Of a DNA stretch of 64,000 nucleotides, positions 33,901 to 36,900 are shown piece by piece (the first letter of the stretch is position 1; each line of letters opens with the position of its first letter). The DNA lies in assembly GCF_030013205.1 (NCBI RefSeq), contig NZ_CP122648.1, one strand, 5' to 3'. This DNA is from Escherichia coli (GTDB taxonomy: Bacteria; Pseudomonadota; Gammaproteobacteria; Enterobacterales; Enterobacteriaceae). The position numbers were made by a program.

Positions 33901-36900
33901 ACAAACGCAGTTACTACGCCATTGATAATACGCTTTTATATATTGAAGATGTAGAAAATAATAAACCATTAATCTAGCTAAAGTTGGATGCTTAAAAAAT
34001 GCTTCATGATTCAGTAAGGCATTAGCATAATGGAAATAAAAGTGCAGAGACTATTCATATGGATGAGTAATACTATCTTTTTATTGCCACCCATAAATAA
34101 TCACCAGATCAATACTATCAACTTGATATTTGAAATGTGATCACTTGACTTTTGATACGTTATTTTATAGCGGTTAACATATTTATAAATAAATATCCTC
34201 CGGCATAGCCGGAGGTTTTTCAAATGCGCCTATAAGGCTCTCTTACCAGCCGCGCCCTAACAGGCGCACACGATCTGACATTTGCATCCAACTTCGTTAC
34301 TTACGGCCCGTAAACGGGCTGCCCGGATAGGGAATCGATAACTGCTCTCCCATTTTATCCTCTTCAAGCTGGTGCTTTATGTAATCCTGTATCTTCGCCG
34401 TGTTCTTACCCACTGTATCGACGTAGTACCCTCTGCACCAGAACTCCCTGTTCCTGTATTTGAATTTCAAATCACCAAACTGCTCGTAAAGCATCAGACT
34501 GCTTTTCCCTTTCAGATATCCCATAAACCCGGATACGCTCATTTTAGGCGGGATCTCCACAAGCATATGGATATGATCTGCACAGCATTCAGCTTCCAGA
34601 ATCCGTACGCTTTTCCACTCACACAGCTTTCTCAAAATACTGCCTATTGCTCTACGCTTCTCTCTGTAGAACACCTGTCTTCGGTATTTTGGCGCAAAAA
34701 CCATGTGATATTTACAGTTCCATCGGGTGTGCGCTAAGCTCTTTTCGTTCCCCATTGGGACCCCCTTTTGATTTCTTGTTTGACACTTGCAGTTGCCAGA
34801 CCGCAAGGTGTTTTAACAAATCAAAAGGGGTTTTAATAACTGGCTCAAAGCTGAAAGCTTTCCGGAACCCCCAGCCTAGCTGGGGGTTTTCTGTGCACAA
34901 AAACAACGGGCGTGTTATACGCCCGTTTCAATATTTAACACATGTAGAGATTACATGTTCTTGATGATCGCATCACCAAACTCGCTGCATTTCAGCAGTT
35001 TAGCGCCTTCCATCAGACGTTCGAAGTCATAGGTTACAGTCTTGGCGTTGATTGCGCCTTCCATACCTTTAACAATCAGGTCTGCGGCTTCAGTCCAGCC
35101 CATATGGCGCAGCATCATCTCAGCGGAGAGAATAATAGAACCTGGGTTTACTTTGTCCTGACCGGCATATTTCGGCGCAGTACCGTGGGTGGCTTCAAAC
35201 AGGGCGCATTCGTCACCGATGTTTGCGCCAGGGGCGATACCGATACCGCCAACCTGCGCTGCCAGGGCGTCAGAAATGTAGTCACCGTTCAGGTTCATAC
35301 AGGCGATAACATCATATTCAGCCGGACGCAGCAGGATCTGTTGCAGGAATGCATCAGCAATCACGTCTTTAATGACGATCTCTTTGCCGGTGTTCGGGTT
35401 TTTAACTTTCAGCCACGGGCCGCCGTCGATCAGTTCACCGCCAAACTCTTCACGCGCCAGCTGGTAGCCCCAGTCTTTAAACGCGCCTTCGGTGAACTTC
35501 ATGATGTTGCCTTTGTGCACCAGGGTCACAGAGTCACGATCGTTCGCAATTGCGTATTCGATCGCTGCACGCACCAGACGTTTGGTGCCTTCTTCCGAAC
35601 ACGGCTTAATACCGATACCGCAATGTTCCGGGAAGCGAATTTTCTTCACGCCCATCTCTTCACGCAGGAATTTAATCACTTTCTCGGCGTCGGCAGAGTC
35701 AGCTTTCCATTCGATACCCGCATAAATGTCTTCCGAGTTTTCACGGAAGATTACCATATCGGTCAGTTCAGGGTGTTTAACCGGGCTTGGGGTGCCCTGA
35801 TAGTAACGTACCGGGCGCAGGCAGATGTAGAGATCCAGTTCCTGGCGCAGGGCAACGTTCAGAGAACGAATACCGCCACCTACTGGAGTGGTCAGCGGGC
35901 CTTTAATGGCAACGCGATATTCACGAATCAGATCAAGGGTTTCAGCAGGCAGCCAGACATCCTGACCATAAACCTGTGTGGATTTTTCACCGGTGTAAAT
36001 TTCCATCCAGGAGATTTTACGCTCGCCTTTATAGGCTTTCTCGACTGCAGCGTCGACCACTTTCAGCATGGCTGGGGTTACATCTACACCGATTCCATCA
36101 CCTTCAATGTAAGGGATAATCGGATTTTCAGGAACGTTGAGTTTGCCGTTTTGCAGGGTGATCTTCTTGCCTTGTGCCGGAACAACTACTTTACTTTCCA
36201 TTCACCTCTCCTTCGAGCGCTACTGGTTTGCTCGTCTGCCACCACGTTGCATATGCGTTTGCGTCCTGCGATACGGATGCTTTAGAGCAATTTTTTGTTA
36301 ATGATTTGTAATTGGCTTGTCAATACTACCCTATTGTTTGCCGTCATGAAAGATGCGCGTTATTAGGCTATAATGCGGCAATTCATAATCTCTGAAAATA
36401 CCATGCAAAAAACTTCTTTTAGAAATCACCAGGTTAAGCGATTCAGCTCGCAACGTTCTACCAGGCGTAAACCTGAAAACCAGCCCACGCGCGTGATCCT
36501 GTTCAATAAACCCTACGATGTTCTTCCGCAGTTCACCGATGAAGCCGGACGCAAAACATTAAAAGAATTCATCCCGGTTCAGGGCGTTTATGCAGCAGGT
36601 CGTCTTGACCGCGATAGCGAAGGGTTACTGGTGCTGACCAATAACGGCGCGTTGCAGGCGCGTTTAACCCAGCCGGGTAAACGCACCGGAAAAATCTATT
36701 ATGTGCAGGTGGAAGGTATTCCCACACAAGACGCACTTGAAGCCTTGCGCAATGGCGTAACCTTAAATGATGGCCCTACCCTGCCCGCAGGCGCGGAGCT
36801 GGTTGAAGAACCCGCGTGGTTATGGCCGCGGAATCCACCAATTCGTGAACGCAAAAGTATTCCCACCAGCTGGCTGAAGATCACCTTATATGAAGGACGT

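What the first reader, a model, noticed from the sequence alone, without database searches (positions are those of the whole stretch)
34188..34950. Second IS200 copy at the icd 3' end; e14 prophage and iraM absent
The second copy sits about 50 bp downstream of the icd stop, next to the icd terminator hairpin (cgggcgt-gttata-acgcccg). In K-12 the icd 3' end is the e14 attachment site and iraM lies between e14 and ycgX, as I recall. Here ycgX is followed only by about 210 bp and the IS200 before icd, so icd has its native 3' end.
Basis: partly seen in the sequence, partly recalled or inferred. Interest (0 to 1): 0.4.

Follow-up and report, generated by a model that had tools for sequence, protein, structure and literature searches.

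The report
IS200 scar where iraM was deleted
An ordinary IS200C insertion sequence sits just after the icd terminator in a pig-ETEC-like E. coli, and it is most likely the single copy left after two IS200 copies recombined and deleted the stress-regulator gene iraM; this is neat but textbook.

Summary
An intact IS200C copy lies at 34188-34900 on the minus strand, 99% identical to the copy at 5802-6514. It abuts the U-tract of the native icd terminator, about 50 bp past the icd stop. There is no e14 DNA and no iraM or ymgK in the window. icd has its non-e14 3' end.

The new point is why iraM is missing. The window matches porcine ETEC genomes such as ETEC4079 at every base but one over 64 kb, apart from 1,570 bp those genomes have and the window lacks. 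In them the locus reads ycgX-ymgL-IS200-ymgK-iraM-IS200-icd. Removing one IS200 plus the 857-bp iraM islet from ETEC4079 reproduces the window exactly. The best explanation is homologous recombination between the two direct IS200 copies, leaving one copy.

Both copies in the relatives sit next to paralogous copies of the icd terminator hairpin, which flank the AT-rich iraM islet. That spot is a recurrent IS200C landing site: 161 and 215 of 5,426 complete genomes carry the two junctions.

iraM absence is itself common (27% of genomes) and already published. Interest is low to moderate: known element, known mechanism, new allele.

The parts
33573..33977 (+). ycgX (DUF1398), left neighbour of the locus
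   Evidence: ORF; Pfam DUF1398; annotated as ycgX in relatives
34030..34140 (+). ymgL small ORF (36 aa) inside the 210 bp between ycgX and the IS
   Evidence: Translation; annotated as ymgL at the same position in relatives
34188..34900 (-). IS200C copy 2. This is the largest block shared with copy 1; the inserted DNA is about 711 bp, with the ends ambiguous by 2 nt in A/T runs. It is the putative recombinant survivor of two direct copies.
   Evidence: It is identical to the icd-proximal copy of ETEC4079. It has no terminal inverted repeats (5 of 30 matches).
34197..34215 (.). IS200 right-end hairpin CCTCCGGCATAGCCGGAGG, terminator-like on the + strand (followed by TTTTTC)
   Evidence: folds at -15.5 kcal/mol, z=-3.5
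34297..34755 (-). tnpA, 152-aa HUH/Y1 transposase, intact, with the HIH motif present
   Evidence: RefSeq protein WP_025210499.1 in ETEC4079
34765..34888 (-). IS200 5' UTR RNA structure (Rfam STnc490), including the left-end hairpin at 34868-34886
   Evidence: 146.4 bits against a gathering score of 56
34905..34927 (-). Native icd intrinsic terminator: stem-loop 34907-34925 and a U-tract that runs into the first bases of the IS
   Evidence: -17.4 kcal/mol; nearly identical to the sequence downstream of K-12 icdC
34951..36201 (-). icd with its native (non-e14) 3' end
5802..6514 (-). IS200C copy 1, between ycgB and fadR. It sits immediately after the fadR terminator and is co-oriented with fadR.

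Best explanation
The element is an intact IS200C, an IS200/IS605-family insertion sequence that moves as single-stranded DNA using a Y1 transposase. It lies immediately after the U-tract of the icd terminator and is co-oriented with icd. In the immediate ancestor of this strain there were two such copies in direct orientation. One sat next to each of two paralogous copies of the icd terminator hairpin, and together they bracketed the 857-bp AT-rich ymgK-iraM islet. Homologous recombination between the two 711-bp copies, presumably RecA-dependent, removed one copy plus the islet (1,570 bp). That left the single copy seen at 34188-34900 and an iraM-less, e14-less ycgX-icd interval. Shown: the anatomy, the identity to the relatives, and the exact fit of the reconstructed deletion. 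Inferred: the direction of change, the recombination pathway, and the phenotype. The expected phenotype is loss of PhoPQ/low-Mg2+-induced stabilisation of RpoS by the IraM anti-adaptor.
For: The seven best-matching genomes are 100.0% identical over 24 kb, and all span 1,567-1,570 bp more than the window. ETEC4079 is annotated ycgX-ymgL-tnpA-ymgK-iraM-tnpA-icd. Deleting 1,570 bp from ETEC4079 while keeping the icd-proximal copy gives 0 differences from the window over 5,431 bp. Keeping the distal copy gives 1 difference, at 34881. Across the whole 64 kb the window differs from ETEC4079 by one SNP (position 2278) plus this deletion. No iraM-less, IS-less genome shares the window's haplotype; the best is 96.7%. 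Genomes with the same IS200-only architecture are only 98.8-98.9% identical and carry a different IS allele and a flipped hairpin loop. The two IS copies within a lineage are identical or nearly so in ETEC4079 and in strain 104, which gives long perfect homology. iraM is single-copy at this locus in genomes that have it.
Against: The crossover cannot be located, because the parental copies differ at only one site. A single-IS parent of the ETEC4068 type could give the identical product by recombination within the 15-bp identical start of the two hairpin repeats. Only one assembly is available, so a collapsed assembly cannot be excluded. No reads and no experiment are available. The rest of the genome is unseen, so iraM or its paralogue iraL elsewhere is not excluded.
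Confidence: 0.7

Rival explanations
1. The deletion came from a single-IS parent with IS200 at the distal hairpin and iraM retained, as in ETEC4068. Short-homology recombination or slippage between the two ~47-bp imperfect direct repeats of the terminator hairpin that flank the ymgK-iraM islet removed 860 bp.
For: The islet is flanked by these repeats in K-12, ETEC4068 and strain 7/2. Their first 15 nt (AAAACAACGGGCGTG) are identical. The predicted product is base-for-base the window sequence. The ETEC4068 IS copy is identical to the window copy.
Against: ETEC4068-type genomes are less close to the window (99.7% over 1.9 kb) than the double-IS genomes (1 SNP in 64 kb). Fifteen bp of perfect homology is a far poorer recombination substrate than 711 bp.
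Confidence: 0.15
2. The assembly is wrong. The strain really has the double-IS200 plus iraM arrangement, and the assembler collapsed the two IS200 copies and dropped the 857-bp islet.
For: The window equals ETEC4079 minus exactly one repeat unit plus the unique spacer. That is the signature of repeat collapse as well as of real recombination.
Against: The window runs uninterrupted through two IS200 copies and an IS2, which implies long-read or hybrid assembly. The islet is unique sequence that reads would place. About 114 other complete genomes have the same IS200-only architecture, so it exists in nature.
Confidence: 0.08
3. The interval never had iraM, like the ~1,039 genomes with ymgL-hairpin-icd and no IS, and IS200 simply inserted beside the single icd terminator.
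For: An iraM-less, IS-less junction is common. The terminator hairpin is a recurrent IS200C target.
Against: No such empty genome shares this haplotype (at most 96.7%). The window is near-clonal with iraM-positive double-IS genomes. This history would require those relatives to have regained the islet plus an extra IS200.
Confidence: 0.05

Closest known systems
IS200 / IS200C (IS200/IS605 family) of Salmonella and E. coli
   Same: It has a single 152-aa Y1 HUH transposase and about 711 bp of inserted DNA. It has no terminal inverted repeats and no clear target duplication. It has subterminal hairpins at both ends and an STnc490-type 5' UTR. RefSeq annotates identical copies as IS200C. Its position just after an intrinsic terminator fits the reported enrichment of terminators upstream of IS200/IS605 elements (bioRxiv 10.1101/2025.07.22.666184).
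   Different: Nothing structural differs. The notable points are local. It uses two paralogous hairpin targets 860 bp apart, and tandem dimers occur at the same site in other strains (L007).
Deletion by homologous recombination between directly repeated IS copies (a classic IS-flanked deletion)
   Same: Two direct copies in the closest relatives bracket the lost segment. One copy remains, and the junctions are untouched.
   Different: IS200 is usually regarded as nearly immobile and is rarely cited as a driver of deletions (my own knowledge, not tested here). The same product could also arise through the short hairpin repeats.
e14 cryptic prophage integration at the icd 3' end (E. coli K-12)
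   Same: It is the same chromosomal spot. In K-12, e14 starts inside icd and displaces the native end as icdC, next to iraM.
   Different: No e14 DNA, integrase or icdC duplicate is present in the window. icd keeps its own end and terminator.
iraM / iraL presence-absence polymorphism (Hryckowian et al. 2014, PMC4045071)
   Same: Strains lacking iraM are well documented, for example CFT073. Here, 1,491 of 5,426 complete genomes lack it.
   Different: Most iraM-less genomes have a clean ymgL-hairpin-icd junction (1,039). This one carries an IS200 scar and derives from an iraM-positive clone.

Membership tests
IS200 (IS200/IS605 family, IS200 group) | Single ORF encoding a ~150-aa Y1 (HUH) transposase, with no tnpB | tested here: met
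   The 152-aa ORF at 34297-34755 (-) matches PF01797 over its full length, E=9.7e-38. The HIH motif is visible in the translation. No other ORF is annotated inside the element in relatives.
IS200 (IS200/IS605 family, IS200 group) | About 0.7 kb long, no terminal inverted repeats, no target-site duplication | tested here: met
   Inserted length is 711 bp when compared with the empty sites in strains 7/2 and A10. Terminal 30-mers match at only 5 of 30 positions as inverted repeats. Only 1-3 ambiguous A/T bases lie at the junctions. Exact ends are not resolved: the proximal site gives 709-710 bp.
IS200 (IS200/IS605 family, IS200 group) | Subterminal hairpins at both ends and a structured 5' UTR | tested here: met
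   Left-end hairpin at 34868-34886 and right-end hairpin at 34197-34215. Rfam STnc490 scores 146 bits.
IS200 (IS200/IS605 family, IS200 group) | Single-strand 'peel and paste' transposition, inserting 3' of a short specific target | not testable with these tools
   Only the indirect pattern is available. Three insertion sites (fadR terminator and the distal and proximal icd-type hairpins) all place the left end right after a hairpin plus T-run. No fixed tetranucleotide could be derived.
e14 prophage at icd | e14 genes (intE, xisE, lit, mcrA and others) between icd and a duplicated icd 3' fragment (icdC) | tested here: not met
   blastn of K-12 e14 (15 kb) against the window gives no hits. The icd 3' 165 nt occurs once.
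IS-flanked deletion (recombination between direct IS copies) | A parental state with two direct copies bracketing the missing DNA, and a product equal to the parent minus one copy and the spacer | tested here: met
   ETEC4079 (L004) carries that state. The reconstruction differs from the window at 0 of 5,431 bp. The direction of change and RecA dependence were not tested.
Ancestral iraM-less allele (clean ymgL-hairpin-icd junction) | No IS at the junction, and a haplotype shared with other iraM-less genomes | tested here: not met
   An IS200 is present. The best empty-site genome is only 96.7% identical over 300 bp, whereas iraM-positive ETEC genomes are 100.0% identical.

The most novel reading that the evidence does not exclude
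IS200C, usually seen as almost inactive, may specifically and repeatedly target the icd-type terminator hairpin (AAAACAACGGGCGTG...). Because that hairpin is duplicated on both sides of the horizontally acquired ymgK-iraM islet, the IS would build direct-repeat pairs around iraM in several lineages (pig ETEC, chicken strain 104, ST38-like strains). That would repeatedly drive loss of an RpoS-stabilising anti-adaptor. On this reading it is an IS-driven, convergent route to re-tuning the general stress response.
Probability: 0.3. Interest if true: 0.4.

Novelty: new member of a known kind. Interest (0 to 1): 0.25.

Why it matters
IraM stabilises RpoS under low Mg2+ through PhoPQ. A clone that has just lost it, next to sister strains that keep it, is a natural isogenic pair for asking what iraM contributes in porcine ETEC. 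The locus also gives a clean three-step series of IS200 activity in the wild: single IS200, then an IS200 pair, then a deletion scar. It also points to a terminator-hairpin hot spot for this poorly understood element. None of this changes current understanding, because the element, the mechanism and the iraM polymorphism are all known.

Tried and rejected
1. I tried to fix the IS200 ends and target to the nucleotide using empty sites. The distal site and copy 1 give 711 bp. The proximal site gives 709-710 bp depending on the strain. A/T homopolymer variation prevents a single consistent definition, and no fixed target tetranucleotide emerged.

2. A literature search for IS200 together with iraM found nothing relevant. 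The three hits were coincidental, and I read one to confirm this.

3. A weak Rfam hit to Ysr202 at 34151-34220 (31 bits against a gathering score of 315) is dismissed as sub-threshold.

4. The coding identity of the last 165 nt of icd alone does not discriminate the native end from the e14 end: 151/165 to icdC against 146/165 to K-12 icd. The non-coding sequence downstream of the stop does.

5. The second comparison was mis-registered by one base through my own script error and is disregarded. The 100.000% match for 34187-64000 comes.

6. The first script failed on file layout and carries no information.

7. I considered and rejected transposase-mediated adjacent deletion. It is not a known activity of Y1 transposases, and the double-IS parent explains the data.

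Full report
**What is there.**
The interval 34188-34900 is a complete IS200C copy on the minus strand.
- It repeats the copy at 5802-6514 over 713 bp with 7 mismatches.
- It encodes an intact 152-aa Y1/HUH transposase at 34297-34755 (PF01797, E=1e-37).
- Its 5' UTR matches Rfam STnc490 at 146 bits.
- It has the usual subterminal hairpins, at 34868-34886 and 34197-34215, and no terminal inverted repeats.

The stretch 34901-34950 is not IS. It is the native icd intrinsic terminator (stem-loop 34907-34925, -17.4 kcal/mol) plus the spacer up to the icd stop at 34951-34953. The IS ends about 50 bp before 34950. The loop is gttat, 5 nt.

**The surroundings.**
Upstream lie bluF, bluR, ycgX (33573-33977) and the small ORF ymgL (34030-34140). 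Downstream on the other strand lie icd, then rluE, nudJ and mnmA.

- The 15 kb of e14 give no blastn hit in the window.
- IraM and YmgK give no tblastn hit better than E=1.5.
- The 857-bp ymgK-iraM islet matches the window only through 47 nt of the hairpin.
- The icd 3' 165 nt occur once.
- The 50 nt after the icd stop match the region after K-12 icdC, the displaced native end, with one mismatch. They do not match the e14-borne end.

So e14 and iraM are absent and icd has its native end.

**Why iraM is missing.**
e14-free strains normally keep iraM between ymgL and icd; strain 7/2 is an example. The genomes closest to the window are seven porcine strains: ETEC4079, 1748, 4067, 4069, 4070, 4071 and K_EC180.
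- They are 100.0% identical over 24 kb but span 1,567-1,570 bp more.
- ETEC4079 is annotated ycgX-ymgL-IS200-ymgK-iraM-IS200-icd, with both IS200 copies in the same orientation.
- Removing 1,570 bp (one IS200 plus the islet) from ETEC4079 and keeping the icd-proximal copy reproduces the window with 0 differences in 5,431 bp.
- Over all 64 kb the window differs from ETEC4079 by a single SNP at 2278, plus this deletion.
- A slightly more distant group (ETEC4068, O139:H1; 99.7%) has only the distal IS200 and still has iraM.

This gives a series: single IS200, then an IS200 pair bracketing iraM, then a single IS200 without iraM. The last step is best explained by homologous recombination between the two direct 711-bp copies. 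I put this at 0.7.

**Rivals.**
1. *Hairpin-repeat route.* The islet is itself flanked by ~47-bp imperfect direct repeats of the icd terminator region, in K-12, ETEC4068 and strain 7/2. Recombination in their identical first 15 nt, starting from an ETEC4068-like parent, would give the identical product. It is less likely, because the nearest relatives are the double-IS genomes and the homology is much shorter (0.15).
2. *Assembly collapse.* Collapse of the two IS copies would look the same and cannot be excluded without reads (0.08).
3. *Ancestral iraM-less site hit by IS200.* This fits poorly. The best IS-free, iraM-free genome is only 96.7% identical at the junction (0.05).

**Population context in 5,426 complete E. 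coli genomes.**

| Feature | Genomes |
|---|---|
| iraM present | 3,935 |
| Clean ymgL-hairpin-icd junction, no iraM, no IS | 1,039 |
| IS200 left end abutting the distal hairpin | 161 |
| IS200 left end abutting the proximal (icd) hairpin | 215 |
| Of those 215, iraM still on the other side of the IS | 101 |
| IS200-only, iraM-less architecture like the window (215 minus 101) | ~114 |

- None of the ~114 has the window's haplotype; the best are 98.8-98.9%, with another IS allele and a flipped hairpin loop.
- The double-IS arrangement also exists in an unrelated chicken strain, with its own IS allele present in both copies.
- Tandem IS200 dimers occur at the site in ST38-like gull and human strains.
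- The hairpin is therefore a recurrent IS200C target, and IS-associated iraM loss has probably happened more than once. I did not do the phylogeny needed to count events.

**How the element sits.**
Both window copies lie immediately after the U-tract of a terminator and are co-oriented with the upstream gene: fadR for copy 1 and icd for copy 2.
- The icd U-tract is preserved, because the IS begins with T(T)GTG.
- This placement matches the reported enrichment of terminators just upstream of IS200/IS605 elements (bioRxiv 10.1101/2025.07.22.666184).
- The element's own left-end hairpin adds to this. Together they would shield tnpA from read-through transcription; this is inference.
- I could not define the ends or a target motif to the nucleotide. 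The inserted length is 711 bp at two sites and 709-710 bp at the proximal site.

**Consequences (inferred).**
IraM is the PhoPQ-induced anti-adaptor that protects RpoS from RssB/ClpXP under low Mg2+ (PMC4045071 and papers listed). iraM is single-copy at this locus in genomes that have it. This strain is therefore probably iraM-null and lacks that branch of RpoS control. ymgK is lost as well. The rest of the genome, including the paralogue iraL, could not be examined.

**Comparison and novelty.**
The element is a textbook IS200C and passes every testable membership feature. e14 membership fails. The deletion fits the classic pattern of recombination between direct IS copies. iraM presence or absence is a published polymorphism. 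I found no paper linking IS200 to iraM loss, and this exact allele is absent from 5,426 complete genomes. It is therefore a new instance of known kinds. Interest is 0.25.

Noticed in passing
L004:2633-3489 (ETEC4079); K-12 L003:17079-17950 (minus strand); the window keeps only one repeat, at 34901-34947: The 857-bp ymgK-iraM islet (30.6% GC against 48.8% for the window) is flanked by ~47-bp imperfect direct repeats of the icd terminator region (85-92% identical). 1,039 genomes have a clean single-hairpin 'empty' site. This looks like an old site-specific insertion, or a repeat-mediated excision, at the icd 3' end. I found no description of it.
   Followed up: partly
window 5802-6514: IS200C copy 1 lies between ycgB and fadR, immediately after the fadR terminator U-tract and co-oriented with fadR. 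This site is empty in 5,385 of 5,426 genomes.
   Followed up: partly
L007:1388-2810 (strain 15.TR.026_OXA and other ST38-like genomes): There is a head-to-tail tandem dimer of IS200C (period 711 bp) at the ymgL-icd site, with a one-base difference at the IS-IS junction (GTGCACAAAAAATATCC). How it arose is unclear: a second insertion at the first copy's target, or integration of a circle junction.
   Followed up: partly
window 34914-34918 compared with L002/L005/L009: The loop of the icd terminator hairpin is exactly inverted between lineages (GTTAT against ATAAC, with the same stem). This is a hairpin loop flip, of the kind made by template switching.
   Followed up: no
window ~26489-29348 (coordinates transferred from ETEC4079 annotation L010:27221-30080): An IS2 (IS3 family) interrupts the c-di-GMP phosphodiesterase gene pdeG (ycgG). 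Relatives annotate the two fragments as incomplete.
   Followed up: no
window 19184-19471: There is a 12-nt-period tandem repeat array (at least 16 overlapping copies) inside the ypjA/ehaD-like autotransporter gene (~18299-21733).
   Followed up: no
L004:2613 (ETEC4079 distal IS200, IS position 694; equivalent to window 34881): The distal IS200 copy of ETEC4079 carries T>A in its left-end hairpin (CCCCCAGCCTAGCAGGGGG), which breaks a stem pair. The window and the proximal copy have T. This is the only marker distinguishing the two parental copies.
   Followed up: yes
window 2278: This is the only SNP between the 64-kb window and ETEC4079 (A against G). It falls in dadX according to the transferred annotation.
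   Followed up: no
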